Positions 32,288 to 48,649 of a DNA stretch of 64,000 nucleotides are shown in pieces. The notes under the pieces were generated by a model, which was given only the letters and a program-made list of their open reading frames with translations, did no database searches and had not been told where the DNA came from. This DNA is from a phage. Numbering within the stretch: the stretch's first letter is position 1; each line of letters begins with the position of its first letter. The DNA lies in assembly GCA_024672315.1 (NCBI GenBank), contig GCA_024672315.1_4714.1, one strand, 5' to 3'. The translations under genes were made by a program, and so were the position numbers.

Positions 32288-32662
32288 TTAATGTTCGTTC
32301 CAGATGGCATCTTCCGGTGGAACAATAGGATCTTTCTTCGGCATTGATGGCACTTCATGACGATGCTTACGGAACTGCCTATCAATAACCTCACGAAGCC
32401 GGTACGCGTCAACCCACGTTGATTTATTGAACAGCTCCAATGTCACAGTTAATCGTGTTCTCGACATTGAATAGCTTTTCTTTGCAATCAAATTGGGATA
32501 ATTCAGTTGAGCGAACCACGCACGTATTTGTGCTTCGGTAAAAGCGATGCTGTAATAACTAAGTTTACCGTCATTAAAATCGTGCGCGTGGGTGTAACGT
32601 CCAGCGTAACGCCAGACAAGATGCACATTCAGATCGATCCATGGTGGGGTGGTATCAGCCAT
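32288..32662 (-). CDS. hypothetical protein
   Basis: 124-aa ORF with GAGGG RBS; last gene of the tail-module block. Confidence 0.7.
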   Translation of the reverse strand: MADTTPPWIDLNVHLVWRYAGRYTHAHDFNDGKLSYYSIAFTEAQIRAWFAQLNYPNLIAKKSYSMSRTRLTVTLELFNKSTWVDAYRLREVIDRQFRKHRHEVPSMPKKDPIVPPEDAIWNEH

Positions 32663-32671: not shown

Positions 32672-33241
32672 TCAACGATTCTTCATCACTTTACCCAGGC
32701 TTTCGATATTATCCCAAAAGCGATTTTTACTTGGCGCATCGCCGACGATAACCGACATCAAATCACGACGTTCGCGACTGATGATGCCTTGTGATTTCCA
32801 GATCACCATCGTCCAGCAAGCAGCCAGAACGAACAGATGGTTAATGCTCGGTTTGGTTTGTGCGACGAACGCAAGCCATGCCCAGATACCGGTATATACC
32901 AACGTCACTAAAAAGAGAGAGATTGTTGCAACGACGACAACGAAGTTTTGGACAGCGGGCTGATTAGCCTTATCATGAATAGCGGTAAGATCAGGAAGAT
33001 TACCTTCAACTGAACTCGTTTCATCGATTTCCAATTCTTCGATTTCTTTTCGTGTGTCAGGAGCTAATCCAGCATCATCGAGATAGTTTTTTAACCGCTG
33101 AATACTTAATCGTTGACCGACAGGAATGTTGATGTTGTCGTAACTATTAAGCGCATCGACCAGTGAGCGCCCGTCAACGAGAACCAAGCTCGCAGTACCC
33201 ATCGTTTGCGGTTTTATTTTGTAAAGGTCTTTTACTTTCAT
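32672..33241 (-). CDS. hypothetical membrane protein
   Basis: 189 aa; two central hydrophobic helices (FVVVVATISLFLVTLVYTGIWAWLAFVA, LFVLAACWTMVIW); GGAGGTG RBS. Confidence 0.7.
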   Translation of the reverse strand: MKVKDLYKIKPQTMGTASLVLVDGRSLVDALNSYDNINIPVGQRLSIQRLKNYLDDAGLAPDTRKEIEELEIDETSSVEGNLPDLTAIHDKANQPAVQNFVVVVATISLFLVTLVYTGIWAWLAFVAQTKPSINHLFVLAACWTMVIWKSQGIISRERRDLMSVIVGDAPSKNRFWDNIESLGKVMKNR

Positions 33242-33262: not shown

Positions 33263-35875
33263 TTAAGCGTCCGGCGTAAAATCAAAAGGAATGTCCGTAC
33301 GAATGATATCATAACGTTTTCCGAGGAAATAAAACTCTTCGGGAACCTGGCCTGGAATGATGCTATCACCGATGAACTGCGGATACGCCCAGATGTACTG
33401 AGTGAGTCCTTCGAACATATCCAGGTTATTTGCGTGGTTACCCATGATACGTTTCCAGAGTTCGCGTTTATACGGCGTTTTAACATCGAACCCATAAAGC
33501 GGTGCAAGATCTTCACCAGGAACAAATCCCAGGTAATAGTGGATCTGACTAACCGGGAAACCAAGCGTATCTCGCGGAATGGTGATCGCTTGCTCAGCCT
33601 TGGTGACATGCGTCTCAATAATCCAGTCATAGCACTCCGAATAGAACCGATCGAATTTCTCTGGATTATACCATGCTTTGGGAAGATTGAGTTTCTCCGT
33701 GAACGCATTCGACATGATCGTCGGTAAGAACGGAAGAATACCGGTTTTGATCTGCGTGTATTTCGATTTTACCCGGTTAACGAGATTCCAGCAACTGTAT
33801 CCTAATTGGTCGTTACAAAACTCAACGTAGAGATCGTAGTCACCGCCGGATAATGGGTTGTTGATGTCACCGATGTCTGCGGCATATTTGTTGGGATATC
33901 GGTTATTGAAAGCCAGTTTGGTTTGGTAATCGTAGATACACGGTTTGTTGTTCGCTGTATTGATCCACCACCAAGGTTCACCTACCTGCACACAAATGTC
34001 CTGGACATGAGGGTAGATGATATCAGCAAATGCGGTTAACACATCCCCTAACCACGCCATCGCCTGTTGGTTACACGGAGACAACAACCAAGACGGTGGC
34101 GTATATCCGGTTGCTGCGATGTTTCCTTCCCAATCCTGCTGCGCCCATTCGAACGGGCATGCGGTACTCATCAATTCGTAACTTAAACTGATAGTGACAG
34201 AGAAATGGTGTTTTGCAGCATATGCAGCGAAAGCTTCATGCCACGCGATACAGGGCGGATTTAATACATCCGTGGTGTTCACCAGTAACTTACCCGCACT
34301 TGGTGTCCAGACAGTATCGTAGAAATGCGACATGCCAACATAATGCACTAATTCATCCTGATATCCCGCATAAACCAGGTTCTCAAATACACGCTCCGGC
34401 GTGATGTTGTAATGGTCATCATAAGCGGTTATCGCACGAAGTTCGTGTGGCGTACAGTGGTGGCGATTAACCGTCATTTCCTGATACACCCCATCGATAG
34501 GAAGAATCTCGATGGTTAAGCCGAGGTCGATCGGTGTTTCCAGATAGGTCGTTTCAGTCGCATCTTCCTTATAATGTCGAGAACTCATGCTGAACATCAA
34601 CGACGTTACCGATTCGAGTTCGATAGGTTCGTCAGCATAGAACCCCGCCATTGCGTCGTTGAAATCGATCGTTACGATTGCGCTTCTACCGTCTTCAGAG
34701 ACATCTGTCGCATATCGGGTTAATGAGATATACTGACGGCTATCGTCTTTGTGTACAACGGTTAAAACCGGCGGGTGTTCGGTATCTGCAAAGTTACGCT
34801 GATCGCCAGTAAACGTGATCTTCGCTTTAAAGATCAAACCAAGCAACGACGTCATGGGATCATACGCAATACAGCCGTGATCCAGCGTATCCGTTGTCCG
34901 CCATTCTATCCCGACCAACCCGTTAGCGGTATGGCATCGCATATACGCATTAAGTACCATGTCTTCACTGACAACCGCGAAGTTCTCTGTTGACTGACCG
35001 TTGATAATCCAATACATCGGCTGCCAGAGGTTACGCGTACCTTTTGCGTAGCGGTAGGTTGGTGCGCCTTTAGGGTTGCCGTTATTGAGATGGAATACGG
35101 CAGTACCTTGATAATGGTCGTTCGTATTAATCGGAACACTGTAAGCATCACCGAGGTCCGTACGTTCCACCTTCGTGATTGTTGCGTTTTCAAATAACCT
35201 ACGTAGCGCGGGTAAACCGATATCTTCAGGCGCGTTTTCTCGACGAATCGCATCCGCGATGCGGTGGGCTAAGGCGGGGTAAATGACTTCACCCTGTTGT
35301 AGGTTTGCAAGACCTACAAAGCGATCGGGGCCGATACCAGCAATCAATAACTCGACACCACCCTTCGTTCTATCGTCGTTAAGATATTTCAGTCCGGTAA
35401 GGTCAAGATGCTGAATAAGCGACAACAGGTTGTAATTACGGTTCTCAACAGTTAGTACAAGATCGCCCGCCCAAACCAAACTTCCCTCATCCGCTGTTAC
35501 TTTAACGGATTGTCGGCCTGTTGTAGACGTTGTTGTCGTTTTATTTAATTGTCCTTGTAGGAAGTCGGTTGCGAGGTCAAAGGCAATACCGTAACGGTCA
35601 GCGACCGCTTGCATGATTTCACGTAACTGGGTATCTTCTTCAATGATAATCTTGACAGGTATTCCCAAGAACGCTTTAGCAAGGTCTCGTTTAACCAACG
35701 AGACGAATACGGATTTGTAGTATCGGCTTCCATCTTTCCCTTTAAAAAGAATGGAGGTTGTTTCGGGTGCCGATAGAACACGTGCAAATACAACATCGTC
35801 GGAAGTAAGAGAAAGTCCGTTTTTCTCGTTGACCAATCTTAGTATTTCATTTTGCGCGGTTTCATGTAACTTCAT
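33263..35875 (-). CDS. putative receptor-binding / tail-associated protein (870 aa) with shared N-terminal module
   Basis: N-terminal ~100 aa (..VFVSLVKRDLAKAFLGIPVKIIIEE..YGIAFDLATDF) is paralogous to the N-termini of 41064..41591 and 45408..46238; sits in the tail-fibre cluster. Confidence 0.6.
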   Translation of the reverse strand: MKLHETAQNEILRLVNEKNGLSLTSDDVVFARVLSAPETTSILFKGKDGSRYYKSVFVSLVKRDLAKAFLGIPVKIIIEEDTQLREIMQAVADRYGIAFDLATDFLQGQLNKTTTTSTTGRQSVKVTADEGSLVWAGDLVLTVENRNYNLLSLIQHLDLTGLKYLNDDRTKGGVELLIAGIGPDRFVGLANLQQGEVIYPALAHRIADAIRRENAPEDIGLPALRRLFENATITKVERTDLGDAYSVPINTNDHYQGTAVFHLNNGNPKGAPTYRYAKGTRNLWQPMYWIINGQSTENFAVVSEDMVLNAYMRCHTANGLVGIEWRTTDTLDHGCIAYDPMTSLLGLIFKAKITFTGDQRNFADTEHPPVLTVVHKDDSRQYISLTRYATDVSEDGRSAIVTIDFNDAMAGFYADEPIELESVTSLMFSMSSRHYKEDATETTYLETPIDLGLTIEILPIDGVYQEMTVNRHHCTPHELRAITAYDDHYNITPERVFENLVYAGYQDELVHYVGMSHFYDTVWTPSAGKLLVNTTDVLNPPCIAWHEAFAAYAAKHHFSVTISLSYELMSTACPFEWAQQDWEGNIAATGYTPPSWLLSPCNQQAMAWLGDVLTAFADIIYPHVQDICVQVGEPWWWINTANNKPCIYDYQTKLAFNNRYPNKYAADIGDINNPLSGGDYDLYVEFCNDQLGYSCWNLVNRVKSKYTQIKTGILPFLPTIMSNAFTEKLNLPKAWYNPEKFDRFYSECYDWIIETHVTKAEQAITIPRDTLGFPVSQIHYYLGFVPGEDLAPLYGFDVKTPYKRELWKRIMGNHANNLDMFEGLTQYIWAYPQFIGDSIIPGQVPEEFYFLGKRYDIIRTDIPFDFTPDA

Positions 35876-35897: not shown

Positions 35898-36539
35898 TTA
35901 GATGTACTGCTTACCGCCCACGAAGGAAGTTAACCAGTTCCCGCTGACGAGTTGTGATACCCAGCCTGGAACGGCTCTACCATTCTGGCTCATGATGTTA
36001 CCACACCAACCAGGGAATCCGGGACGGATGTAATAGAAAGTTAAATTGTAGAGATGACAGTTCCATACCGCAACGTTATGTTTACCAGAAACCGCTTTAA
36101 AGACAAACGCGACAGGTAAAGGAGACGATAACAATTCGGTCACAGGGACGGCTGACCAGTTCGCATTCGCGTTCCACGGCTGCCAGGTATGACTACGCGA
36201 GTCGCAATATACGTTACCGTTGTTACCGCGCCCACCCGCATGCCACCACAGCGACGGACTCATGTTCTTAAGTGAGGTAAATTGTTGCGGTGGAATATTA
36301 GGAATAATAACAGGGTTGGTACCTTGTCCATGTTTCTTTTCTTTTGCGTTCACATACCCGCTTATCGATTCGAGGTATTTGGTACCAGGATAATTGTTCT
36401 GGACTTGTGTCGCAATATCACGAACGTCGAACGTCCAGCAGATCATGGTGTTATAGTAAGCGTCGGTGTTATCGTGCCATGAGTTACCATCTTGTAAACG
36501 TGCGCCGCTATTCGGTGTTTTATCTGTACTTATAGCCAT
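35898..36539 (-). CDS. hypothetical protein
   Basis: 213-aa ORF, Trp/Asn/Gly-rich; AGGA RBS. Confidence 0.7.
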   Translation of the reverse strand: MAISTDKTPNSGARLQDGNSWHDNTDAYYNTMICWTFDVRDIATQVQNNYPGTKYLESISGYVNAKEKKHGQGTNPVIIPNIPPQQFTSLKNMSPSLWWHAGGRGNNGNVYCDSRSHTWQPWNANANWSAVPVTELLSSPLPVAFVFKAVSGKHNVAVWNCHLYNLTFYYIRPGFPGWCGNIMSQNGRAVPGWVSQLVSGNWLTSFVGGKQYI

Positions 36540-36671
36540 GGTCTTGTCCTATACGTTGGTGGTTGAGGTGACGGATATCGGATGCGTGCTGGACGTGAAC
36601 CCTATAGTTCACGCTATCGCCATTTTCTACCTCGTTTCTATTCTCAAAAAGGAAATTTCATACGATGACGC

Positions 36672-36712
36672 CATAGCAGCTCCTCCTTCCCTGACGGGTT
36701 GGAGGAGCATAC
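36672..36712. promoter_or_regulatory. conserved GC-rich intergenic stem-loop, family copy 4
   Basis: catagca GCTCCTCC ttccctgacgggtt GGAGGAGC atac; loop identical to the reverse complement of copy 1's loop; between lipoprotein gene and 35898..36539. Confidence 0.8.
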
Positions 36713-36716
36713 TTAA

Positions 36717-37223
36717 TTACTTACTGATAACCTCAACGGAGTTGGGATCAGCGATCAATGCACGGTCGGTAGAACAATTGAAGAAGACCATCCCAACACC
36801 ATCGCCGTTCGAGTTCAGGGTTGAACTTGCGTAAGACAATGTTGGTTTGTTCATGCGGTAGAAGCGTTCGCTGGTTGCGGTATTGAACCCCAGGTCAACG
36901 TAGTCTTTCACCGTGGTATACAACTGGGTGGACTCGAAAACGGTTACCGGAGAGTCAACGGTAAACTGACTGCCTTCATCCACAACCAGAACTTTATCGT
37001 TCCAGATTTCAGTGGTTGAGAACTTCGGTTTCCAATGTTCGAATTCCTGGGTTGCGCCCCAGCAAGAATACACAGCGAGATTGCTGTTCTTCTCAACAGG
37101 TTTCAAACCCACCAGTTGCGTCAGGTCTTTATCCAGGTTCGGTAAACCTTCCAGCGTAGCACACCCACCCAGAGAAAGCACCATCAACATACCAAGAACG
37201 ATCGCGCAAAGTTTCTTCATCAT
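36717..37223 (-). CDS. putative lipoprotein
   Basis: 168 aa; N-terminus MMKKLCAIVLGMLMVLSLGGCATLEG = basic n-region, hydrophobic h-region and lipobox-like LGGC; AAGGAA RBS; immediately downstream of the tail-fibre gene. Confidence 0.7.
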   Translation of the reverse strand: MMKKLCAIVLGMLMVLSLGGCATLEGLPNLDKDLTQLVGLKPVEKNSNLAVYSCWGATQEFEHWKPKFSTTEIWNDKVLVVDEGSQFTVDSPVTVFESTQLYTTVKDYVDLGFNTATSERFYRMNKPTLSYASSTLNSNGDGVGMVFFNCSTDRALIADPNSVEVISK

Positions 37224-37277
37224 CGGATTTCCTTATGTGTTAACGGAAGTGATTTCCATAAGAATAATCGTCCGATG

Positions 37278-40200
37278 TTAATATCCCTGGTTTGTAGCTC
37301 CTGCTGTACCTGCGAACTTCAGCCATTGCCCTTCCGGCGACAATGCGCTCCGATAATGATACACTACAATCATATTTGTCAAACCGCTATAATCTGCTTT
37401 ATGTTGCGTAGTAATACGTATCGTATAATCCAACCCGTTAGGGAAGTTGAATACTTCAATGATCGTACCGGCGAGCTGGAGAGCACCGAACCCGGTGATT
37501 GTTCCTGTGCTTCCGGCGTTCATGCCCATCGCATCGCCGAATCCAATCCAGTAGCGTTTCCGAAACGCACCTTCGCTTTTCAGATAGTTGATGAAGTCAC
37601 TAAACGACATGTTCATACCACCAGATGAAAGCGTGGATGTTTTAATCGCCATGTTAGGGATATCGCTACTGGATGCTTTATATCCTAATTTCGTATCGAT
37701 TTCTGACTTCGTATACGTAGACAGATCCGCCGCAGTTAACGTGATATTCGCCGAACCATCGAACGCTTTCCCGTTGATCGTACGCGCAGTCCGCAACTTC
37801 GTTGCCGTTGCTGCGTTTCCTGAAGTATTCTGATTACCAGCGGTGTTGACACCTGGTAGGTTAATATTAGCGCTGCCGTCAAAAGACACTCCGCCTATTG
37901 TCCGGGCCGTCTTTAACTTGGTCGCTGTCGCCGCATTTCCTGTGGTATCTTGGTTACCTGTGGTATTAACACCAGGTAAGTTGATGTTTGCTGTACCGTT
38001 GAATGATACCCCACCTATCGTTCTTGCCGTTTGAAGCCTTGTCGCTGAAGCGGCATTACCCGTCGTGTTTTGGTTACCTGTTGCATTCACACCCGGGATA
38101 CTATCCTTAGATGTGTAAATCTGTGCCCATTCCGACCATTTCGCATCGGTTGTATCGCGACGTGAACGTAAATAAGCTGGAGCGTGCGCGCCCGAGGTAC
38201 CCGACCATCCAATGAGGATTTCACCTTCACCAACCGATGAAGCACCTTTAAGATGAACAATGTTACCGTAGGCTGTAGGGTATCCGTTATTGTACACTTC
38301 ATACATCTGAATACCCGTATTGCTGCCCTGGGTCGCATTAGCTAAAGCGGTGACCCGTCCCTTGGAAGCGAGCACGTTAATGCTAAAGCTAATATCAGTT
38401 GTACCGTCAAAGGCGACCCCATTAATCCTCCGCGCCGTTTGGAGTTTCGTGGCAGTAGCCGCATTACCAGAGGTACTCTGATTACCCGCTTTGTTCACAC
38501 CCGGTAAATCAATGTTGGCGGTCCCATCAAAGGACACACCCCCTATGGTTCTCGCCGTCCGAAGTTTTGTTGCTGAACCAGCGTTTCCGGAAGTGCTTTG
38601 ATTCCCCGACGCGTTGACACCCGGTAGGTTAATGCTCGCAGAACCATCAAAAGAAACTCCGCCGATCGTGATCGGTGTTTGCAGCTTCGTGGCTGTCGCA
38701 GCATTACCCGTCGTATTCTGATTGCCAACCGCATTAACGCCTGGTAATGCGATATCGGCCGTACCATCGAACGCAACACCACCGATTTTACGGGCGGTCT
38801 GTAGCTTGGTCGCTGTCGCCGCGTTGCCGCTGGTATTTTGCGTGCCCGCTTCATTTACGCCTGGTAAATCAATGTTCGCAGTACCGTCAAAAGAAACACC
38901 CCCGATGGTTCTCGCGGTCTGCAACTTCGTTGCACTTCCTGCGTTTCCGCTGGTGCTTTGATTTCCCGCTGCATTAACACCTGGTAGACTGATGCTGGCT
39001 GAACCATCGAAACTCACACCACCGATCGTAACAGCGGTTTTCAATTTCGTGGCGGTTGCTGCGTTACCGGTTGTATTTTGGTTGCCTGTCGCATTCACGC
39101 CAGGTAATGCAATATCCGCTGTTCCGTCAAAGGCAACGCCACCGATTTTACGTGCAGTTTGTAGCTTGGTTGCACTAGCAGCGTTACCGCTGGTATTCTG
39201 GGTGCCCGCTTTGTTAACACCGGGGAGATCGATGTTAGCAGAACCATCGAAGCTGACGCCACCTATCGTTCTTGCGGTAGCGAGTTTAGCTGCTGTGGCT
39301 GCATTATTACCCACTTTCAGCCAATCATCCCATGGACCATCCTGGCCGTTCCATGATGCCGTTAAACTACGTACGTAAATATTGCCGGTACGTACAGTGT
39401 AACGTTGCGTTCCACCGAATTGCCCGGTTGGGAGCACTTCAATGTAACCTGCGGCGTTTGCTTCAGGGAAATTGTGGGCGATGTCCGCGTTCGTTGTTAC
39501 TGGTTTAGACCAAATACCCACAGACGCTTCGACTGGGCCGAAGGTATTCAGATTTGCGTCTATCGCCATAGCGCCATTAAATTTCAGGTATGTCTCTGAC
39601 GATAACCCGATCGTTTTAGCAAACGCAGCTTTATCTACGATATCACTACCGTTATTCCCTGCTTGCAACGCCGTCTTAGCTGCCTTTATGGTTTCGGTCA
39701 ATCCAAGATACTGTAAGATCGCATCAACGCTTCCTTTGTTTAGCAGATTCAGACCTGTTGACGTTACGTTAGTTAGTCCGATTTGGTTCCGTCCAGTAAA
39801 ATAAGGGAGTTTATTCGCTTCTGTTGTTAGGTTAGACCACGCAGTCAACAACGCGTTCAAAGGCTGTTTACCCGCCAACGCATTGGTTACTGTCGTTGCG
39901 AAATTAGGATCGTTCCCTAAAGCTTGAGCCAGCTCATTAAGCGTATTTAGCGCTTCTGGAGACGAGTCGATCAGCGATGCGATAGCGCGCATCACAAATT
40001 CCGTGTTGGCAATCTGTCGACTGCTATCGTTCTCTGCAGCCGTAGGCGCTGCCGGGATACCGGTGAACACGGGGCTATTAAGATCTGCCTTGAGCGCGAT
40101 GAGACGTTTAAGTGCGTCGACATCGACTTTCAGGTTTTCCCACCCGATGAGAGAACCACCACTGCTGGCATGATAACGGTTATACCAGAAGTCACCGTTA

Positions 40201-41057
40201 ATGCCTAAAAAGAATATTCCCTTCTCTTCGTTTTGTGGGCCAGAACTGTTCCGTGACGAGCTGATGTAATTGATTTCAATAAGACCGGTAAACGTCACTC
40301 CTGGAATTATTTTATTGTCTCCAGCTGACTGTGATACCTGGTAAATCCCCGGGGTTGCGGCTTTAACCCATGTTAAGAATTCTGTTACTCCAGCGGTGCC
40401 GCTAAAATTCTTAACGTCGGTAAGTATTGCCCCATAACCGAACATACCGGGTAGAGCCACTCGTCCGCTGGTACGATCACGAATATCTGTTGCAACAACA
40501 GGCAATTGTTTACGAACGGCATTAACCGCTTTAGGTGTAGCCGATTTTGTCTCGTCGTCGCTATCGGTTGCATTACTTAGAATAGTTAAACCGCGCGTAG
40601 CAGTCGTTGCATCAGGAAGAAATGCGTTATCCAACACCTTAAGCTGTACTGCACTCGTATTACTAACAACGACATGCACTTGACAGTTAAGAACGCTGGT
40701 TGCGCCTTCGGCAGGCGTAGGCTTATATCTTTCTGGTGCACTGCAGACGGCAATCAGAACACCTTGGTCATCATACAGACCGATCTCACGTACCCAGAAC
40801 CCACCTTGACCAGCAGGAATAATACCCTCAACGATAATCCTGGTTGTGCTGTCACCATCCGCATGGATATTAGAAACTTCCCCACGATAAACTTCGTGAA
40901 CAAGCGCTGTTTGGCTGGCGGTCGGAGTTGGGATCGAGCCGTTACCATCACCAACGGCAAAGTGTGTGATTTTTAGTTTCTCACCGTCGGGAAGTAACGC
41001 GGCGGTGATACGTTCTGCTCCTTTATCGGTAACTACCGTTATATATGCTGTACTCAT
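37278..41057 (-). CDS. tail fibre protein
   Basis: 1259 aa; N-terminus (..FAVGDGNGSIP..ALVHEVYRG..GGFWVREIGLYDDQGVLIAV..YKPTPAEG..ATPKAVNAV) matches the conserved N-terminal domain of P2 gpH-type tail fibres (from memory); about ten tandem 40-aa repeats of type ATKLQTARTIGGVSFDGSANIDLPGVN..GNQNTSGNA. Confidence 0.9.
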   Translation of the reverse strand: MSTAYITVVTDKGAERITAALLPDGEKLKITHFAVGDGNGSIPTPTASQTALVHEVYRGEVSNIHADGDSTTRIIVEGIIPAGQGGFWVREIGLYDDQGVLIAVCSAPERYKPTPAEGATSVLNCQVHVVVSNTSAVQLKVLDNAFLPDATTATRGLTILSNATDSDDETKSATPKAVNAVRKQLPVVATDIRDRTSGRVALPGMFGYGAILTDVKNFSGTAGVTEFLTWVKAATPGIYQVSQSAGDNKIIPGVTFTGLIEINYISSSRNSSGPQNEEKGIFFLGINGDFWYNRYHASSGGSLIGWENLKVDVDALKRLIALKADLNSPVFTGIPAAPTAAENDSSRQIANTEFVMRAIASLIDSSPEALNTLNELAQALGNDPNFATTVTNALAGKQPLNALLTAWSNLTTEANKLPYFTGRNQIGLTNVTSTGLNLLNKGSVDAILQYLGLTETIKAAKTALQAGNNGSDIVDKAAFAKTIGLSSETYLKFNGAMAIDANLNTFGPVEASVGIWSKPVTTNADIAHNFPEANAAGYIEVLPTGQFGGTQRYTVRTGNIYVRSLTASWNGQDGPWDDWLKVGNNAATAAKLATARTIGGVSFDGSANIDLPGVNKAGTQNTSGNAASATKLQTARKIGGVAFDGTADIALPGVNATGNQNTTGNAATATKLKTAVTIGGVSFDGSASISLPGVNAAGNQSTSGNAGSATKLQTARTIGGVSFDGTANIDLPGVNEAGTQNTSGNAATATKLQTARKIGGVAFDGTADIALPGVNAVGNQNTTGNAATATKLQTPITIGGVSFDGSASINLPGVNASGNQSTSGNAGSATKLRTARTIGGVSFDGTANIDLPGVNKAGNQSTSGNAATATKLQTARRINGVAFDGTTDISFSINVLASKGRVTALANATQGSNTGIQMYEVYNNGYPTAYGNIVHLKGASSVGEGEILIGWSGTSGAHAPAYLRSRRDTTDAKWSEWAQIYTSKDSIPGVNATGNQNTTGNAASATRLQTARTIGGVSFNGTANINLPGVNTTGNQDTTGNAATATKLKTARTIGGVSFDGSANINLPGVNTAGNQNTSGNAATATKLRTARTINGKAFDGSANITLTAADLSTYTKSEIDTKLGYKASSSDIPNMAIKTSTLSSGGMNMSFSDFINYLKSEGAFRKRYWIGFGDAMGMNAGSTGTITGFGALQLAGTIIEVFNFPNGLDYTIRITTQHKADYSGLTNMIVVYHYRSALSPEGQWLKFAGTAGATNQGY
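37740..39300 (-). repeat. in-frame tandem repeats (~120 bp / 40 aa, about 10 copies in two blocks) inside the tail-fibre gene
   Basis: Repeating peptide ATKLQTARTIGGVSFDGSANIDLPGVNxxGNQNTSGNA; DNA periodicity visible (same motif recurs 120 nt apart, e.g. near 38404, 38524, 38644, 38764, 38884); blocks of ~7.5 and ~2.5 copies separated by a ~285-bp non-repeat insert (~38100..38380). Confidence 0.85.
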
Positions 41058-41063: not shown

Positions 41064-41591
41064 TTATCCTGGATAAATAGTGATGATATCACCAATGACG
41101 GTTGTGGCACCGGCGTAAAGATGAGCCGGAGATACATCGTGTTGGTTTGTCACAGTAAGATCCAATCGACCACGCCAAACCATGGAGGTATTCGCGATGG
41201 GGATAGAAATCTTTTTGGATATATCGTCACGAAAATCAATAACAGTGGCAAGGGTAACTGCATCAAAATCAACGTCGGGATCAAAGACGAACCCGTATTG
41301 ATCTGAAATCGCCCGAATAATCGCATGTATAGTTGTTGTCTCAACGGACTCTAAAACGATTTTTACCGGTATTCCTAAAAATGCCTTCGCGATATCGCGT
41401 CGAGCGTAAACGATAAAACTTTCACCGCACCACTTTGTTCCTTCATTTGCTGTGACGATCACTTTTGCCCTGTTAGCACCAGAACTCCCATCCAAGGTTA
41501 ATGTAAGATCGGAGCTGCTGAACACGCTACCGTTACGTTGGTTTATCAACGTAATCAGTTCGTCTTTCCATGGCGGGTAAAGTGAACGCAT
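41064..41591 (-). CDS. hypothetical protein with the shared N-terminal module (short paralog)
   Basis: 175 aa; ..FIVYARRDIAKAFLGIPVKIVLE..YGFVFDPDVDFD aligns with the N-terminus of 33263..35875. Confidence 0.7.
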   Translation of the reverse strand: MRSLYPPWKDELITLINQRNGSVFSSSDLTLTLDGSSGANRAKVIVTANEGTKWCGESFIVYARRDIAKAFLGIPVKIVLESVETTTIHAIIRAISDQYGFVFDPDVDFDAVTLATVIDFRDDISKKISIPIANTSMVWRGRLDLTVTNQHDVSPAHLYAGATTVIGDIITIYPG

Positions 41592-41697
41592 AAGCGCAAC
41601 CCTCCTCCAACAGTCAAATTAAATTGTAAAACTCCTCGAGATCAGAGTGCGATTCGAGGTAAACGTAAACAGTCCAGACGACCGCATAAAATTCCGC

Positions 41698-41797: not shown

Positions 41798-44700
41798 TTA
41801 AATGGTTGGTTTTACATCACGTAATAAGGCAATATAATAGCCTAATCCTCGGAGGATCTCCCCACTCCAGAAACCAAAATACATTCCGTCTCTGCCGAGA
41901 TTAGCGCTATCTGGTGCAGGACTCCACCCACCATTCATTACGTCGTCAACAGTGTAATGGTTGATGTAGTTCTCAACGATTTCGTTATAAGCATTAACCG
42001 CAACAGAATAGCCTTTATCGTTGGGATGTCCGTACAACATTGCTAACGACGCACCCGCCAACCATAATCCCGCCATGTGACCAGTAAAGTCATTAGGGAT
42101 AAAAGCAGGGGGTTTATCCATCGGAAAATCCGTAGGGGATTGATAAGCGTTTTCCTGTTGATACGTAAACAAGAAATCGATCCAATGACTGATGTAAGTG
42201 GTTAATTTCTCAGGGACAGCCAAACCATGATCAAGCAGTCCAGCATAAAGCCTCACCGCTGAGAAGAAAGCCCTCGGCTGATAACCGGACCATGCCGTCT
42301 GATCGCCGAAGTGGTACATCGTAAAATCGTTAACTTTTGATCCGCTTGGCGCATCCCAACGATCCCACACGTACGCACTTGCCCCTGGCCCTAAAACCCC
42401 GAATTTCTGATAATACCACTGTTGTGAGTCATACCAGAAATTCACAACGTTCTGAATCATGAGGTCACGTCGTTCAGTCGGTACTTCCATATCCAGGAAG
42501 ACCCATGGATGTTGGTAGCCGGGATAAGGCTGACCACGCCAACTGTCGAACGTCGGTGCGTTAGGGATATAGTTGTTCGAGAACGGAATAATACCAGGAG
42601 TATAAGGCAGTGGGTCAAGACGTTGGTTGACAATCGTGCAATCGCCAACACGTAATGTTCCCTCTGCCTCAAAGGTTGCTTTTAACGTAAACAACATGGT
42701 ATATCCGTCATCCGTGGTGTAAGTTGACGGTGGATTGTTGATGGCGTAAAGCTTAAATACCCCTTCAGCGATATCGCTGTCGTCAGGCAAGAACAGAATT
42801 TCAGTTGAGCCATCGCCCCACACAGGTGCAGAAGGTTTAGGGTCAGTATCAGCGTGGCCCGGTTGATACCCTGAAAGCGTCCATCCGTTCACCGAAAGCG
42901 TCAACGTATTTCTTGCCGTGGTGGCCGGTAGCATATACCACCATCGCCAACCATTTGCATCTTCTACACGAACGTTGTAGTCAATCGACGCGAAATAACT
43001 GACCTGTCTTACGATCTGTTTTGCTGTTGGATTGAATTCAAATTGCCCGCCTGCTGCAGTAAGCTGCGCTTTTAGGAACAACCCATCCCAGGAATCTTCC
43101 ACCGCTTCGCTGAATTCTGTTGTGATGGCGACATCATCTTTCCAGCCGACTTTATCAGCCGATATCAACACAGAACCTGTAACAACATCACCGGTTGGTG
43201 TTGAAGCTTCATCAACCGCATCGGCAGGAATCAACGAGCCTATTTTGAAATCCCATTCTTTCGGTTCAGCGCTGGAAGGTAGTACCAGTTTGTACGTTTT
43301 GGCGTTCGCTTCGGTTTTGTCCAAAGAAAGCGATAATGAGATCTCAACCGGAATTGCAACACCTGCTGTATCTTTACCTCCGCAGGTTACACGAAGAATT
43401 GAATCACGATTGACGCGGAACGGAATGGCCTGCTGCTCAAGGTAAATTTGTGCTGAAGATGCTTGAATCACGATCCAGCCATCGGTATCACGCGTGATTG
43501 TAAACGGTGCTTTCGATGGGTATGTATACGTGTAAGCGATACCGTCGGTGTCGTAACGATCGGTTCCTTTTACCTGACGGAAGAACTTATCATTGGCGTC
43601 GATACGGGTATATTCTTCAATCGTAAACAACGATGCCTTGTACGCTTTCTGATAACGCTCCTGCTGCGTTAAACGGTATAAGGTGTAGGCTGCTTCACAA
43701 AACCACTGTTCAGCGTCTGACGCGTTTCCCATGTAGTCTCTGGTGACCGGCACCTGGATCGGTCGGTTATGCTGACATTCGTTCGTTTTGATAAGGTATC
43801 CGCCATATTCAACAGGAACACGGGGTGCCCATGCAACCAAGTAAGAACCGTTGACGGATTTATCTTTGAGTACGATAGTACCTACTTCATCGTCAGTACA
43901 CGCTTCAAGATCGTCTCCGTCAGCACTTACGTAACGTTTTGTGCGTAACGCAACTTTCTCGATAGGGAACACCGTACCCTTTGTATCCCAGTCAATTGTC
44001 CCATCATCATTGGTTTTGAACACATCCGCGTTCAAATTCTGCCAGCCGAGTTTACCCTCATAGACCTGAACAACAAGATCCATGTATTCCCCGAACGTTG
44101 GCGCACCGTGTGTTATTTTTCCGATACCGTTGGTGAATGTAACCGCTGTGTCATGGAAACCGCCATGTGTTGGGTAATCGTCTTTTGCAAGAGGATAATG
44201 GGCCAACACAGGTTGTTTACCATTAACAATCCAGTTAGCGATCCAGCGTGCTGGTGTATCCGGTGGTTCAAGGCCTGCATAGAACGCATTTATATACGCA
44301 TCGAACGATGCCTCCGCTAATGTGAGATAATGCGCTTTAAGCTTGGTATCATCCGTTGTATGACTGAATATACCCGCACCCAGAATTAACAACGACTGTC
44401 CTTCTGTTGTTGCGTCACCGTCCGGTTGTGCTTCTTGTCGTGTTGCTGCAATGAAATGACGGTTGTTTACCATGACTCCGCTTTCATTTAACACGTAATG
44501 ATCGGTTTCTGGATCGGTAAACGTTCCTGTGTTTCGGGTTAAGAATCTTGCATGACCATAACCAACGAAATTAACCGGCGACGCCGTAAGCACCCATTTA
44601 CCGATAAGTTGAGCGACGTCATTATAACGCTCCGATGCGGTGATTTGTTTCACGTACCAATCTTTACGGTTAAATGTCCAGAGCAGGAAGTAATAGGTTG

Positions 44701-45394
44701 TATTGATTTCCATCACTGGGAACGTCGGCGTTAACGGCTCCAGCGTTAAGTAGTTGCTCCAATCAATCTGTCCACCAACCACCGATGGGGTAATCTCTAA
44801 TAACTGACACCATTCATAACGGTTCGGTACACTACCGGACGTTGTTGGTAAAGGTAACTTGTATACGCCAGTACGATTCAGATCGAACGCTTTTCTAGCC
44901 GATCCTAAATCAACATAAATACTCGATGATGCGCTTGCATCAGATGCCTCCAAAGCACCTAGCGTTGACCGATACATTGAGATGAACAACGTATCTTTCC
45001 AGTAAGGGTTATCCTCGGTTGGTTCTAAAGCGATTTGTGCGGAGATGCTGTTCCATGTCCCTAACTGGTATGCTGCATTTAAAGATTCTTCCGTGAAATA
45101 ACTTTCCGCAATCGCCAGATGGAACTGTTCATTCAATAACGCGAGTGCACTGCGACCGGTAACATCCTCGTTACCGGTTTCTTTTTTCATGATCGCGCCG
45201 AACGGAAACAGTGTCGCGAATGACCGTTTTGGTTTATTAACCGTAACCGTCCCCGTGTATTTTCCAACACCATCAAGTTTTTGACTATCGCCAACAGCAG
45301 TGACTGCGATACCATCAACCGGGATATCTGTTTTATTTAGTATATTGAGTTGGTCAACCAGATCCTGCTTATCGTCAGGTAAGAATGTCGCCAT
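41798..45394 (-). CDS. large tail-associated protein (1198 aa), possible tail spike/fibre
   Basis: Long ORF in the tail-fibre cluster with AAGGTGGAG RBS; Trp/Tyr/Gly-rich C-terminal part; no motif recognised, call rests on position. Confidence 0.55.
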   Translation of the reverse strand: MATFLPDDKQDLVDQLNILNKTDIPVDGIAVTAVGDSQKLDGVGKYTGTVTVNKPKRSFATLFPFGAIMKKETGNEDVTGRSALALLNEQFHLAIAESYFTEESLNAAYQLGTWNSISAQIALEPTEDNPYWKDTLFISMYRSTLGALEASDASASSSIYVDLGSARKAFDLNRTGVYKLPLPTTSGSVPNRYEWCQLLEITPSVVGGQIDWSNYLTLEPLTPTFPVMEINTTYYFLLWTFNRKDWYVKQITASERYNDVAQLIGKWVLTASPVNFVGYGHARFLTRNTGTFTDPETDHYVLNESGVMVNNRHFIAATRQEAQPDGDATTEGQSLLILGAGIFSHTTDDTKLKAHYLTLAEASFDAYINAFYAGLEPPDTPARWIANWIVNGKQPVLAHYPLAKDDYPTHGGFHDTAVTFTNGIGKITHGAPTFGEYMDLVVQVYEGKLGWQNLNADVFKTNDDGTIDWDTKGTVFPIEKVALRTKRYVSADGDDLEACTDDEVGTIVLKDKSVNGSYLVAWAPRVPVEYGGYLIKTNECQHNRPIQVPVTRDYMGNASDAEQWFCEAAYTLYRLTQQERYQKAYKASLFTIEEYTRIDANDKFFRQVKGTDRYDTDGIAYTYTYPSKAPFTITRDTDGWIVIQASSAQIYLEQQAIPFRVNRDSILRVTCGGKDTAGVAIPVEISLSLSLDKTEANAKTYKLVLPSSAEPKEWDFKIGSLIPADAVDEASTPTGDVVTGSVLISADKVGWKDDVAITTEFSEAVEDSWDGLFLKAQLTAAGGQFEFNPTAKQIVRQVSYFASIDYNVRVEDANGWRWWYMLPATTARNTLTLSVNGWTLSGYQPGHADTDPKPSAPVWGDGSTEILFLPDDSDIAEGVFKLYAINNPPSTYTTDDGYTMLFTLKATFEAEGTLRVGDCTIVNQRLDPLPYTPGIIPFSNNYIPNAPTFDSWRGQPYPGYQHPWVFLDMEVPTERRDLMIQNVVNFWYDSQQWYYQKFGVLGPGASAYVWDRWDAPSGSKVNDFTMYHFGDQTAWSGYQPRAFFSAVRLYAGLLDHGLAVPEKLTTYISHWIDFLFTYQQENAYQSPTDFPMDKPPAFIPNDFTGHMAGLWLAGASLAMLYGHPNDKGYSVAVNAYNEIVENYINHYTVDDVMNGGWSPAPDSANLGRDGMYFGFWSGEILRGLGYYIALLRDVKPTI

Positions 45395-46372: not shown

Positions 46373-46948
46373 TTAGTAAGGAATCAGATCGTTAAGCTTT
46401 TCTTCTTCAATGACAAAGAAGTTGTTCTGGTCGTCTAAATCTGTTAACAGGACTTGTCCGACAGTAAAGCAAGTGCCGCCCTTCTTAGGCATCCATACCG
46501 GCTCATTCGTTACCTTATCGGGATACCATTTGAAACGATTGGTGTCTAAGAAGAACGCTGCTTTGTTCGCTTTATCGGTTGAACGATAGCTAACCAATGC
46601 AGGCCACTCAATCCAGGTGTTTGTGCACGGCACATGTAAAGGATACCATGCGCGCCAGCGTTTGCCTGGCCTGTTAGGATCAACCCAATACTCGGCAGTC
46701 AATACAGCATCTTTATAATGTTTCTGCATTAACATTTCGAGCACAAGCTCATTGCCTTTAGACGCATCTAAAGTCACTTCCGTCATATAAAGCGATTTAG
46801 GTAATTCAGACTGTTTTGCGGGTGTTACAACACCGGTAACCAACGGTCTGCTCGGTTTACGTTTCTGTTCTTTCCGACGTGTGTAAAAGAATAGTCCGAT
46901 AGATACAGCAACAAGGATAATAAACAACACTACCTTAATCCAATTCAT
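46373..46948 (-). CDS. hypothetical membrane-anchored protein
   Basis: 191 aa; N-terminal helix WIKVVLFIILVAVSIGLFFY followed by RRKEQKRK; stop followed by a hairpin plus T-run terminator. Confidence 0.7.
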   Translation of the reverse strand: MNWIKVVLFIILVAVSIGLFFYTRRKEQKRKPSRPLVTGVVTPAKQSELPKSLYMTEVTLDASKGNELVLEMLMQKHYKDAVLTAEYWVDPNRPGKRWRAWYPLHVPCTNTWIEWPALVSYRSTDKANKAAFFLDTNRFKWYPDKVTNEPVWMPKKGGTCFTVGQVLLTDLDDQNNFFVIEEEKLNDLIPY

Positions 46949-47694: not shown

Positions 47695-47771
47695 TTTCCA
47701 TTCCTCAAACAAAAGATTGTCTTTTACGCGACATGATTACTAATACACAGGTTACTGAATTTCTGTAAAAG

Positions 47772-48272
47772 TTAATGTTTGTTCTTTACGAACTCTACCG
47801 CTTCCAGAATAGCAGCGTTTAATCGTTGACCGCGTTCCTCCATTGTCCCGCCATCGCGATGTTTGAAATTAACCGAGTGGATATCCCAAGCCCAGTAATG
47901 TGTCTCCGGCGTGTCGTCTTCTTTGGTGGGATCGCTCAATCTGTTAACCCCGATTCGCCAAATATAATCAGCGGGTTGTCGTCGTAAGCATTCACCTATA
48001 GCGTCTATATAAGACAACCCTTCGGTCGTCACAGCGACGATAACGTGCGGATGCTTACGAACAACCTTTGTGCTTGTTTTCCCATCAACGACCACTTTAC
48101 GGGTTACATTATCGTGTCCTTCGCATGACCACATCGGTGCAATACCAGGCGCATCTAACAACGCCTGGCACGCGGGTAATATTCCGGGTTCAATGACTCC
48201 TTCCTTGATAGCCATCCATGCACGTTCTTTGAATATCGCTAATTGTTCTTCGCTGACAACAAAAGAAAACAT
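47772..48272 (-). CDS. hypothetical protein
   Basis: ORF track starts at GTG 48302; ATG at residue 11 (MFSFVVSEEQ...) has AAGGAG RBS. Confidence 0.7.
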   Translation of the reverse strand: MFSFVVSEEQLAIFKERAWMAIKEGVIEPGILPACQALLDAPGIAPMWSCEGHDNVTRKVVVDGKTSTKVVRKHPHVIVAVTTEGLSYIDAIGECLRRQPADYIWRIGVNRLSDPTKEDDTPETHYWAWDIHSVNFKHRDGGTMEERGQRLNAAILEAVEFVKNKH

Positions 48273-48602: not shown

Positions 48603-48649
48603 GATGATTTCCTTCTTTATTAGGATGATTACATTTAGTCAGTTTAACA

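What the first reader, a model, noticed from the sequence alone, without database searches (positions are those of the whole stretch)
36717..37223. Lipoprotein gene embedded in the tail-fibre/receptor-binding cluster
A 168-aa protein with a lipoprotein-type signal (MMKKLCAIVLGMLMVLSLGG|C) is encoded immediately downstream of the tail-fibre gene. By analogy with T5 Llp, encoded next to the T5 receptor-binding protein gene and blocking the receptor after infection, this could be a superinfection-exclusion or receptor-masking lipoprotein rather than a virion component. It is about twice the size of Llp, so the analogy is positional only.
Basis: inference. Interest (0 to 1): 0.5.

Follow-up and report, generated by a model that had tools for sequence, protein, structure and literature searches.

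The report
Jumbo-phage outer-membrane lipoprotein, function unproven
A Goslar-like giant E. coli phage carries a real, well-conserved gene for an exported, lipid-anchored small barrel protein that is not part of the virus particle in a related phage and most likely alters the infected cell's envelope, perhaps to keep further phages out, but its target and function have not been shown.

Summary
Window 36717..37223 (minus strand) encodes a 168-aa lipoprotein precursor 54 nt after the 1259-aa tail-fibre gene. The window is about 95% identical to E. coli jumbo phage Goslar, and the gene is Goslar_00088.

- **Family:** small, found only in enterobacterial nucleus-forming jumbo phages (Goslar-like, SPN3US, several Erwinia genera). 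31 of 32 members keep the lipobox, none has Asp at +2, and two further Cys are invariant.
- **Selection:** window versus Goslar shows 15 synonymous and 1 non-synonymous change.
- **Fold:** AlphaFold gives an 8-stranded beta-barrel on a flexible tether, with no convincing structural or sequence relative.
- **Virion:** the SPN3US homologue gp159 is absent from the published 86-protein virion proteome.
- **Transcription:** the gene looks like an autonomous unit, with a conserved TATG late-type promoter motif and a hairpin after the stop.
- **Position:** it sits in a hot-spot where fibre genes are swapped, yet stays unchanged when the fibre tip is exchanged.
- **Not Llp, not a spanin:** it is unrelated to T5 Llp, and SPN3US has a separate spanin-like pair (gp204/gp205).

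Best reading (about 0.35): a non-virion outer-membrane lipoprotein that makes the infected cell refractory to further phage attack through a conserved envelope target. The function is untested.

The parts
36717..37223 (-). Coding sequence of the 168-aa lipoprotein precursor (Goslar_00088 orthologue; PHROG 9559). The conserved start is probably the second ATG at 37220.
   Evidence: ORF and translation; 99% aa identity to Goslar; 15 synonymous versus 1 non-synonymous codon difference; PHROG 9559 E=1.4e-21.
37164..37223 (-). Signal peptide (residues 1-20: MMKK, hydrophobic core, LGG of the lipobox).
   Evidence: Sequence. All 32 family members have a short basic n-region and a hydrophobic core, and 31 of them also keep L-[AGST]-[GS]-C.
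37161..37163 (-). Cys21, the predicted lipid-modified first residue of the mature protein. The +2 residue is Ala, which predicts outer-membrane sorting.
   Evidence: Codon TGT. Cys conserved in 31/32. The +2 residue is A/S/K/V/T/Q and never D. The Lol-avoidance rule (Asp at +2 retains in the inner membrane) is established knowledge for Enterobacterales.
37077..37160 (-). Low-confidence tether (residues 22-49) between the lipid anchor and the folded domain. It is about 9 residues shorter in the SPN3US clade.
   Evidence: pLDDT 44-63 for residues 21-40; Cys-to-Cys54 spacing is 32-33 versus 23-25 residues.
36771..37076 (-). Predicted 8-stranded beta-barrel domain (residues 50-151), with invariant Cys54 (37064..37062) in the first strand and Cys150 (36776..36774) in the last strand, a probable disulfide.
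   Evidence: AlphaFold2 pLDDT 87-95 over residues about 41-150, eight strands. Invariant columns Y52 C54 D82 G84 R120 Y122 S134 G140 G142 C150. Exactly three Cys in the mature protein of 31 of the 32 members. Cys-Cys proximity could not be measured because no coordinates were available.
37256..37260 (-). TATGG, a candidate late-type (non-virion RNA polymerase) promoter with G 37257 as the putative +1. It coincides with the left edge of homology to Goslar.
   Evidence: Conserved as [CT]TATGG about 37 nt before the start in window, Goslar, L012, L004 and L005 despite unrelated upstream genes. [CT]TATG[GC] occurs 24 times versus 7.7 expected in 132 Goslar upstream regions, mostly 33-56 nt from the start. 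TATGAC lies 40-65 nt upstream in 5/5 SPN3US-clade genomes. phiKZ late promoters are TATG with G = +1 (PMC4666361). Inferred, not mapped.
37228..37234 (-). Shine-Dalgarno-like AAGGAAA, 4 nt before the first ATG and 7 nt before the second.
   Evidence: Sequence; conserved in Goslar and L011.
36679..36708 (-). GC-rich hairpin (GCTCCTCC...GGAGGAGC) 8 nt after the stop codon, a probable transcript end, followed by another TATG at 36675..36672 that may start the next unit.
   Evidence: The 181-nt stretch 36540..36720 (the 177-nt intergenic region plus the stop codon and one more base) folds at -51.9 kcal/mol, z = -2.6. An equivalent hairpin directly after the stop is seen in all 7 Goslar-clade loci and, with a T-run, in 5/5 SPN3US-clade loci. 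There is no T-run in the window, so termination is inferred.

Best explanation
The gene encodes a non-structural lipoprotein. It is made from its own late-type transcription unit, exported by Sec, lipidated at Cys21, and sorted by Lol to the inner leaflet of the host outer membrane. There, a disulfide-stapled 8-stranded beta-barrel hangs on a flexible tether of about 25 residues in the periplasm. Its most likely job is to change the envelope of the already-infected cell, and of the debris left after lysis, so that further phage particles cannot infect productively or are not wasted. This is superinfection exclusion or progeny protection in the broad sense.

The protein is kept unchanged while the neighbouring fibre tips are swapped, and it is conserved across phages of E. 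coli, Salmonella and Erwinia. Its target is therefore more likely a conserved envelope component, or the incoming phage's own penetration machinery, than the variable receptor read by the adjacent fibre.

- Shown: the gene is real and under purifying selection; the signal and Cys pattern are conserved; the barrel fold is predicted with confidence; a homologue is absent from virions; the gene is independent of the fibre tip.
- Inferred: outer-membrane location, late timing, the disulfide, and the exclusion function itself.
For: 1. Canonical and conserved lipoprotein signal, no Asp at +2, and exactly two further invariant Cys, as expected of an oxidised periplasmic domain.
2. 15:1 synonymous to non-synonymous changes against Goslar.
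3. SPN3US gp159 is absent from the 86-protein virion proteome although its neighbours gp155, gp157 and gp160 are detected.
4. Promoter-gene-terminator ('moron'-like) architecture in both clades. In the SPN3US clade the gene stands alone on the opposite strand, as T5 llp stands divergent from the pb5 gene.
5. It is an accessory gene. Only 15 representatives were found among 1.84 billion proteins, all from enterobacterial jumbo phages. No homologue was detected in PCH45 or PhiEaH1 in the phage-collection search, and in phiKZ neither lipoprotein found in the 35-kb region examined (gp141.1, gp156) is related.
6. It resides in the locus where fibre-type genes (DUF7941, Phage_tail_fib, GP38, DUF285, LRR) come and go.
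7. It is not the spanin. SPN3US has a separate i-spanin-like/o-spanin-like pair, gp204/gp205.
8. The known precedents for non-spanin outer-membrane lipoproteins in virulent coliphages are exclusion proteins (T5 Llp, annotated). This is prior knowledge.
Against: - No functional data exist for any member.
- There is no similarity to Llp beyond the signal peptide, and no hit in Pfam, NCBIfam, PADLOC or PDB sequences.
- A late promoter would give protection only from mid or late infection, unlike the early T5 llp.
- SPN3US is, from my recollection and unverified here, a flagellum-dependent phage, a receptor that a periplasmic lipoprotein could not mask.
- Goslar has no other lipoprotein and no recognisable spanin, which leaves room for a lysis role.
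Confidence: 0.35

Rival explanations
1. Lysis accessory acting at the outer membrane or periplasm: a non-canonical outer-membrane disruptor, or a periplasmic modulator of lysis timing, made late together with virion parts.
For: - It is the only convincing lipoprotein ORF in the whole Goslar genome, even with a relaxed lipobox. The same scan recovers the phiKZ o-spanin gp141.1 and an embedded Pro-rich o-spanin in PhiEaH1.
- Goslar has no tblastn homologue of the phiKZ, PhiEaH1 or PCH45 spanins or spanin candidates, or of the SPN3US gp204/gp205 pair.
- In relatives L004 and L013 the gene lies directly upstream of the w_189/w_124 pair. That pair has the architecture of the phiKZ class IIIb holin plus regulator: a large cytoplasmic N-domain followed by transmembrane segment(s), then a small soluble protein.
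- In the SPN3US clade the gene is within 3 kb of a GH108+PG_binding_3 hydrolase and small transmembrane ORFs.
- The promoter motif is of the late type.
Against: - No i-spanin-like gene is adjacent or overlapping.
- There is no C-terminal transmembrane segment, so it is not a u-spanin.
- The periplasmic part is a confidently folded barrel, not the short Pro-rich chain typical of o-spanins.
- SPN3US carries gp159 as well as a canonical-looking spanin pair, gp204/gp205.
- The family was not detected in PCH45 or PhiEaH1, or among the phiKZ lipoproteins examined, and these phages also have to breach an outer membrane.
- The w_189 family has a different phage distribution and no detectable homology to the phiKZ holin.
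- In Goslar the GH108 gene is about 80 kb away.
Confidence: 0.15
2. Periplasmic inhibitor of a peptidoglycan hydrolase. It would be MliC/PliC-like in architecture and T4 Spackle-like in purpose, protecting the infected cell from tail lysins of superinfecting phages or from premature action of the phage's own exported hydrolases.
For: - The architecture matches MliC-type inhibitors: a lipoprotein with a small 8-stranded barrel and a Cys in the first and in the last strand.
- SPN3US gp159 is convergent with gp158 (PHROG 'endolysin', M15-like) and close to gp156 (GH108).
- The window encodes a SleB-type hydrolase with its own signal peptide at 48696..49193.
Against: - No Pfam MliC or other inhibitor family hit in any of the 32 members at E<=1.
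- Foldseek finds nothing significant in the PDB.
- Hydrolase linkage is absent in the Goslar clade.
Confidence: 0.12
3. One reading: an Llp/Cor-type mask of the specific receptor recognised by the adjacent tail fibre.
For: The position is immediately after the fibre gene. It is a lipoprotein. The homologue is non-virion. The Llp precedent sits next to pb5.
Against: - The fibre tip and chaperone were exchanged between the window and Goslar with the breakpoint 37 nt upstream of the start, while the lipoprotein is 99% identical.
- The new tip is related to P1/P7-type S variable parts and to phage Cyrano.
- L011 has a third fibre/chaperone and L004 has none.
- The exact window protein occurs on phage-sized contigs from E. 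coli, Salmonella and Shigella isolates.
- There is no homology to Llp.
Confidence: 0.1
4. A virion or assembly component whose hydrophobic N-terminus is not a real export signal.
For: It lies among structural genes and is probably expressed with them.
Against: The lipobox is conserved through 25-30% identity. Two invariant Cys suit an oxidising compartment. SPN3US gp159 was not detected in purified virions at a depth that found 86 proteins, including few-copy ones.
Confidence: 0.03

Closest known systems
T5 Llp (and the Cor lipoproteins of T1/phi80/N15-type phages): superinfection-exclusion lipoproteins that inactivate FhuA
   Same: A phage-encoded SPase II lipoprotein with outer-membrane sorting expected. 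The mature protein has the lipid Cys plus two further Cys. The gene sits beside adsorption-apparatus genes as its own transcription unit, divergent from the neighbour both in T5 and in the SPN3US clade. It is non-virion, by homologue.
   Different: No sequence similarity beyond the signal peptide. The mature protein is 148 aa versus about 62 aa. It has a beta-barrel fold. It does not co-vary with the adjacent receptor-binding tip. The promoter motif is probably late rather than early. The target is unknown.
o-spanins (lambda Rz1, phiKZ gp141.1, candidate SPN3US gp205)
   Same: An outer-membrane lipoprotein made late by a phage of a Gram-negative host. It is the only such protein detectable in Goslar.
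   Different: There is no adjacent or overlapping i-spanin gene. The domain is folded rather than short and Pro-rich. It is unrelated to gp141.1 and gp205. It coexists with a spanin-like pair in SPN3US.
MliC/PliC-type lysozyme inhibitors and, functionally, T4 Spackle
   Different: No family-level sequence match. The structural similarity is not above the generic barrel background. No activity is known.
Morons of lambdoid phages (e.g. lambda bor, a lipoprotein gene with its own promoter and terminator inside the late region)
   Same: An autonomous promoter-gene-hairpin unit inserted between late structural genes. The product is an envelope lipoprotein not needed for the particle.
   Different: It is found in strictly virulent jumbo phages and is transcribed, by inference, by a phage RNA polymerase. 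No Pfam family, Lambda_Bor included if that library carries it, reached E<=0.1 for the window protein or appeared among the seven weak families that the other members matched at E<=1.

Membership tests
Bacterial-type lipoprotein (SPase II substrate) | Basic n-region, hydrophobic h-region, lipobox [LVI]-[ASTG]-[GAS]-C within the first ~35 residues | tested here: met
   MMKK / LCAIVLGMLMVLS / LGGC in the window. 31/32 homologues have L(V/A)-[AGST]-[GS]-C. This was pattern-based; LipoP and SignalP were not available.
Bacterial-type lipoprotein (SPase II substrate) | Actual lipidation and signal peptidase II cleavage; outer-membrane localisation | not testable with these tools
   Outer-membrane sorting is inferred from the absence of Asp at +2 in all 32 members.
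T5 Llp / Cor superinfection-exclusion lipoproteins | Sequence homology of the mature protein | tested here: not met
   hhalign of the family profile against T5 Llp aligns only 17 signal-peptide columns, probability 38%. The only PHROG hit is 9559, 'unknown function'.
T5 Llp / Cor superinfection-exclusion lipoproteins | Gene adjacent to the receptor-binding protein gene and matched to its receptor | tested here: inconclusive
   Adjacency to fibre-type genes recurs. However, the gene is unchanged when the fibre tip is swapped, and it has no fibre neighbour in L004.
T5 Llp / Cor superinfection-exclusion lipoproteins | Blocks the receptor or infection when expressed; not in the virion | not testable with these tools
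   Only the non-virion part has indirect support: SPN3US gp159 is absent from the virion proteome.
Two-component spanin, o-spanin subunit | Gene embedded in, overlapping or directly following an i-spanin gene (N-terminal transmembrane segment plus coiled-coil) | tested here: not met
   The upstream neighbour is the tail fibre (or Tfa/DUF4376) and the downstream neighbour is a soluble 213-aa protein. The positive-control scan finds phiKZ gp141.1, an embedded o-spanin-like ORF in PhiEaH1, and SPN3US gp205.
Two-component spanin, o-spanin subunit | Short, Pro-rich, largely unstructured periplasmic domain | tested here: not met
   A 100-residue barrel predicted at pLDDT 87-95.
Unimolecular spanin (T1 gp11 type) | Lipoprotein signal plus a C-terminal transmembrane segment | tested here: not met
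   The only hydrophobic segment is the signal peptide, residues 1-27.
MliC/PliC lysozyme inhibitors | Match to the family profile or its conserved motifs | tested here: not met
   No such Pfam hit in any of the 32 members at E<=1. The PDB profile search gave nothing below E 0.08.
MliC/PliC lysozyme inhibitors | Small 8-stranded beta-barrel with a disulfide, periplasmic or lipoprotein | tested here: inconclusive
PHROG 9559 (unknown function) | Profile match | tested here: met
   E = 1.4e-21, residues 1-153.
Moron-type autonomous unit | Own promoter and terminator between late structural genes | tested here: inconclusive
   A conserved TATG motif and post-stop hairpins occur in 12 loci of both clades. 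No transcript ends have been mapped.

The most novel reading that the evidence does not exclude
In Goslar-like phages I could find no spanin pair and no other lipoprotein. In these phages this beta-barrel lipoprotein may be the outer-membrane-acting component of lysis. That would be a new kind of outer-membrane disruptor, or a spanin partner encoded away from its inner-membrane counterpart, possibly working with the nearby holin-like w_189/w_124 pair.
Probability: 0.1. Interest if true: 0.7.

Novelty: new variant of a known kind. Interest (0 to 1): 0.4.

Why it matters
Nucleus-forming jumbo phages (Chimalliviridae) are studied intensively for how they shield their DNA inside the cell. Almost nothing is known about how they manage the cell envelope, whether to keep competitors out or to get progeny out.

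This family is a clean, testable candidate. It is a single small gene and the only lipoprotein of Goslar. It is conserved across phages of E. coli, Salmonella and Erwinia, and it is absent from virions in SPN3US.

- If it excludes superinfecting phages through a conserved envelope target, it would be a new exclusion protein family with a new fold. It would also matter for designing jumbo-phage cocktails.
- If it acts in lysis instead, it would help explain how Goslar-type phages breach the outer membrane without recognisable spanins.

If neither holds, it remains an ordinary accessory lipoprotein of unknown role.

Tried and rejected
- **Family libraries:** Pfam, NCBIfam and PADLOC gave no family for the protein or its relatives.
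- **PDB sequence profile search:** only noise, best E 0.08.
- **Exhaustive profile search of 1.84 billion representatives:** 15 hits, all jumbo-phage. The two long outliers (P0045, P0046) are unrelated secreted beta-rich proteins.
- **'DUF2846' label** on one GenBank homologue: not reproduced by Pfam.
- **Homology to the phiKZ o-spanin gp141.1, phiKZ lipoprotein gp156, SPN3US gp205 and T5 Llp:** signal peptide or lipobox only.
- **Homology of the neighbouring w_189 family to the phiKZ holin gp142:** none.
- **Obligate partnership with w_189:** rejected, because the two families have different phage distributions.
- **Sigma-70 promoter and intrinsic-terminator scan:** no better than shuffles, as expected for phages that use their own RNA polymerases.
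- **Infected-cell proteome paper for SPN3US (PMC6384053):** not held, so the expression timing of gp159 could not be read.
- **Literature searches** for gp159, Goslar plus lipoprotein, and jumbo phage plus superinfection exclusion: nothing specific.
- **Complete E. coli genomes:** no copy.
Full report
**What the window is.** The region around the finding is 95.5% identical at the DNA level to Escherichia phage vB_EcoM_Goslar, a 237-kb nucleus-forming jumbo phage. The window is collinear with Goslar over its whole length at about 89-96% identity. The ORF in question is the orthologue of Goslar_00088, annotated 'hypothetical protein'.

**The observation.** On the minus strand, 36717..37223 encodes 168 aa beginning MMKKLCAIVLGMLMVLSLGGCATLEG.
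- It starts 54 nt after the stop of a 1259-aa tail-fibre gene (37278..41057; Pfam Phage_tail_fib 1.8e-41 and Phage_fiber_2).
- The N-terminus has every element of a signal-peptidase-II substrate, with Cys21 at 37163..37161 and Ala at +2.
- Goslar has ACG instead of the first ATG, so the second ATG (37220) is probably the real start.
- A pattern scan of all 1712 start-stop combinations in the window finds no other long ORF with such a signal.

The only omission is the strand.

**It is a real, constrained gene that defines a small family.**
- A word-indexed search, a profile search, tblastn against 50,697 phage records and an exhaustive HMM search of 1.84 billion representatives all find the same small set. 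These are Goslar-like phages and metagenomic relatives (48-98% identity), plus SPN3US-like Salmonella, Escherichia and Proteus phages and four genera of Erwinia jumbo phages (25-35% identity).
- There are no cellular homologues. The 'E. coli', 'Salmonella' and 'Shigella' accessions sit on contigs of 236-259 kb, which are co-assembled phage genomes. No complete E. coli genome has the gene.
- In a 32-sequence alignment the lipobox Cys is present in 31. The exception is a 471-nt partial contig.
- The lipobox is L/V/A-[AGST]-[GS]-C, and the +2 residue is never Asp.
- The mature protein contains exactly two more Cys, both invariant (C54, C150), in 31 of the 32 members. Other invariant positions are Y52, D82, G84, R120, Y122, S134, G140 and G142.
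- Against Goslar the gene has 16 nucleotide differences, of which 15 are synonymous. This is the most conservative ratio among seven neighbouring genes.

**Predicted structure.** AlphaFold2 on the 32-sequence alignment gives mean pLDDT 77.9, and 87-95 across residues about 41-150. The model has three parts:
- a signal helix;
- a low-confidence tether (residues 22-49);
- eight beta-strands forming a barrel (residues 50-151).

C54 lies in the first strand and C150 in the last. A barrel-closing disulfide is therefore plausible but was not measured.

- OmpW, lipocalins, and the neisserial surface lipoproteins NHBA, TbpB and fHbp;

Foldseek finds no PDB hit at E<=0.001. In the viral library it finds only the family itself plus weak matches to other uncharacterised phage lipoproteins. 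Pfam, NCBIfam, PADLOC and PDB sequence searches are empty. The only profile match is PHROG 9559, 'unknown function'.

**Not a virion protein, by homologue.** Ali et al. 2017 identified 86 proteins in purified SPN3US virions, down to few-copy components. The list contains gp153, 154, 155, 157, 160 and 167-171, but not gp159, the homologue (PMC5694885, Supplementary Table 1).

**Genomic context: a fixed resident of a fibre hot-spot, not a partner of one fibre.** In the window the order on the minus strand is:

| Gene | Coordinates | Note |
|---|---|---|
| w_1198 tail protein | 41798..45394 | conserved |
| w_175 | 41064..41591 | DUF7941 |
| tail fibre | 37278..41057 | 1259 aa |
| lipoprotein | 36717..37223 | the finding |
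| w_213 | 35898..36539 | orphan |
| w_870 | 33263..35875 | DUF7941 + non-contractile-sheath TIM barrel |
| w_189 | 32672..33241 | membrane protein |
| w_124 | 32288..32662 | small soluble protein |

Relatives keep the outer genes but vary the middle:
- L004 has w_1198 homologue, lipoprotein, w_189 homologue, w_124 homologue, with no fibre gene.
- L005 has DUF7941-LRR, a 150-aa gene, DUF7941 (604 aa), lipoprotein, DUF7941-DUF285, w_189 homologue, w_124 homologue.
- L011 (lipoprotein 86% identical) has a 1024-aa fibre plus a DUF4376 chaperone-like gene before the lipoprotein.
- Goslar has a 1324-aa fibre plus a Caudo_TAP assembly protein before it.

Between the window and Goslar, homology is interrupted only from 37261 to about 38550, which covers the fibre tip and the chaperone. 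The breakpoint falls 37 nt upstream of the lipoprotein start. The new tip resembles the fibre of E. coli phage Cyrano and P1/P7 S variable segments. The receptor-binding end has therefore been exchanged at least three times around an unchanged lipoprotein. This argues against a receptor mask matched to that fibre.

In the SPN3US clade the gene stands alone on the opposite strand.
- On its 5' side lie one to four short DUF7941 paralogues. SPN3US gp160 is an abundant head-associated protein.
- Within 3 kb lies a module of GH108+PG_binding_3 hydrolase, tiny transmembrane ORFs, DUF1353 and, in some genomes, an M15-like hydrolase. The DUF7941+GP38-adhesin protein gp155 is also close.
- The hydrolase linkage is not kept in Goslar, where the GH108 gene is about 80 kb away.

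**Transcription unit.** The upstream homology between the window and Goslar begins exactly at a TATGG (37260..37256).
- The same [CT]TATGG lies about 37 nt before the start in L012, L004 and L005.
- L004, L005 and L013 also have a terminator hairpin just upstream.
- All seven Goslar-clade loci have a GC-rich hairpin directly after the stop (window 36708..36679), followed by another TATG.
- In five SPN3US-clade genomes an invariant TATGAC lies 40-65 nt upstream, and a hairpin plus T-run follows the stop.
- In Goslar, [CT]TATG[GC] occurs 24 times in 132 upstream regions against 7.7 expected, mostly 33-56 nt from start codons.
- In phiKZ, TATG with G as +1 is the late promoter of the non-virion RNA polymerase (PMC4666361).
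- The early-type motif TATATTAC is enriched genome-wide but absent from 28-47 kb of the window.

I infer a self-contained, late-type promoter-gene-terminator unit, which is a 'moron' architecture. This is inference from a short motif. No transcript has been mapped.

**The spanin question.** A 2026 study showed that phiKZ has a canonical lysis cassette: i-spanin gp141, o-spanin gp141.1, class IIIb holin gp142, regulator gp143 and endolysin gp144 (PMC12894885). I therefore asked whether this lipoprotein could be the o-spanin.

Against:
- There is no adjacent i-spanin.
- There is no C-terminal membrane segment.
- The domain is a folded barrel.
- There is no similarity to gp141.1.
- A whole-genome scan of SPN3US finds a second lipoprotein, gp205. 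It directly follows gp204, which has an N-terminal membrane segment, a coiled-coil-like stretch and a Pro-rich tail. This is a canonical-looking separated spanin pair, unrelated to the family. In SPN3US the family therefore coexists with spanins.

For:
- In Goslar the target is the only convincing lipoprotein even with a relaxed lipobox. The same scan recovers phiKZ gp141.1 and an embedded Pro-rich o-spanin in PhiEaH1.
- Goslar has no homologue of any of these spanins.
- In L004 and L013 the gene sits directly before w_189/w_124, a pair with the architecture of the phiKZ holin and regulator. There is no detectable homology, however, and the w_189 family has a different phage distribution.

I keep a lysis role as a live rival at 0.15.

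**Most likely mechanism.** Three kinds of step should be kept apart.
- Shown by sequence: a conserved export and lipidation signal, a Cys pair and purifying selection.
- Following from established rules: Sec export, Lgt/LspA/Lnt processing, and Lol transfer to the outer membrane because +2 is not Asp.
- Inferred: late synthesis, and a periplasmic barrel on a tether that binds a conserved envelope component or the incoming phage's penetration apparatus. The result would be exclusion of further infection or protection of progress from debris.

The inference rests on several points:
- the non-virion status of the homologue;
- the accessory distribution;
- the moron architecture;
- residence in the adsorption-gene hot-spot;
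- independence from spanins in SPN3US;
- the precedent of Llp.

It is weakened by the complete absence of functional data and of any informative homology. I give it 0.35. The rest is unassigned.

**Comparison with known systems.** It works, at best, like Llp/Cor, but it is not a member of that family. Homology was tested and not found, and size and fold differ. It fails the defining features of o-spanins and u-spanins. It shares architecture but no family signal with MliC/PliC inhibitors. It is a member of PHROG 9559 and carries UniProt's automatic 'Lipoprotein' label, so its existence is recorded but its function is not.

**Verdict.** It is not supported in its specific form (a mask for the neighbouring fibre's receptor). 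Interest is moderate: an uncharacterised family of new fold in a much-studied phage group, cheaply testable, with a small chance of bearing on how Goslar-type phages lyse without recognisable spanins.

Noticed in passing
window 37261..~38550 (C-terminal part of the tail-fibre gene 37278..41057, minus strand): Relative to Goslar, the distal part of the fibre is replaced and the Caudo_TAP assembly gene (Goslar_00089) is missing. The last ~190 aa are 69% identical to the fibre of E. coli phage Cyrano and related to P1/P7 S variable segments. No chaperone gene follows the fibre here.
   Followed up: partly
window 32672..33241 and 32288..32662 (minus strand): The 189-aa protein has a ~95-residue soluble N-domain, two membrane segments and a conserved charged tail (GIISRERRDLMSV.VGD). 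It is followed by a 124-aa soluble protein. The architecture recalls the phiKZ class IIIb holin gp142 plus regulator gp143, but hhalign finds no homology. In PCH45 and PhiEaH1 the homologue follows RuvC-Tmk, where phiKZ has its spanin and holin genes after RuvC-like gp140. This may be the Goslar holin.
   Followed up: partly
window 46373..51573 (minus strand): A cluster of exported or membrane proteins: a 191-aa protein with an N-terminal membrane anchor (46373..46948); a SleB-type cell-wall hydrolase with its own signal peptide (48696..49193); a multi-pass 123-aa protein (49735..50106); a 56-aa membrane protein (50328..50498); and two proteins with cleavable-looking signals (50719..51069, 51106..51573). 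This is a candidate lysis region.
   Followed up: no
Goslar genome (L006-L010); SPN3US 180017..180976; PhiEaH1 locus L021 8713..9297: No canonical spanin pair could be found in Goslar. SPN3US gp204/gp205 look like an unannotated separated i-spanin/o-spanin pair next to the gp206 nuclease. PhiEaH1 has a Pro-rich lipoprotein ORF (82 aa) embedded in a 194-aa membrane-anchored protein.
   Followed up: partly
Goslar genome-wide; window 41684..41690, 37256..37260, 36672..36675: Two motifs are enriched upstream of genes. TATATTA(C) resembles the phiKZ early promoter core as I recall it, and T(T)TATGC/[CT]TATG[GC] is late-type. The latter often directly follows a GC hairpin, suggesting compact terminator-promoter junctions. 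TTTATGC at 41690 may drive w_175 and the fibre gene.
   Followed up: partly
window 33263..35875 and 41064..41591; SPN3US gp141, gp160 and paralogues: The DUF7941 N-domain shared by several 'fibre' genes here belongs, in SPN3US, to 'paralog family B'. Its members were assigned to the head in tailless-mutant proteomics, with gp160 and gp141 at more than 300 copies. Part of this 'tail-fibre cluster' may therefore encode head-attached fibres or decorations.
   Followed up: no
window 35898..36539 (minus strand): The 213-aa gene just downstream of the lipoprotein has no family hit. It is absent from L004 and L005, evolves faster than its neighbours (8 non-synonymous of 38 changed codons versus Goslar), and has distant matches only in Serratia phage PCH45 and Salmonella phage SPLA10.
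   Followed up: partly
loci L004 10001..10051 and L013 748..813: The database proteins P0005 and P0004 carry spurious N-terminal extensions of 17-22 residues. In P0005 the called start is the ATG inside the upstream TATG promoter-like motif. The real start is the MLKR/MNKY methionine that precedes the signal peptide.
   Followed up: yes
cluster of the window protein: The exact 168-aa sequence occurs on 104 contigs, up to 259 kb, deposited as E. coli, Salmonella Enteritidis and other isolates. Near-identical cluster members are deposited as Shigella flexneri and further Salmonella serovars. Goslar-like phage genomes seem to be co-assembled with clinical or surveillance isolates fairly often (carrier state or contamination). 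None is found in complete E. coli genomes.
   Followed up: no
phiKZ locus L019 20185..20598 (gp156): phiKZ gp156 also has a convincing lipoprotein signal (LISGC). It is unrelated in sequence to the family studied here, so it is a second non-spanin lipoprotein in a chimallivirus.
   Followed up: partly
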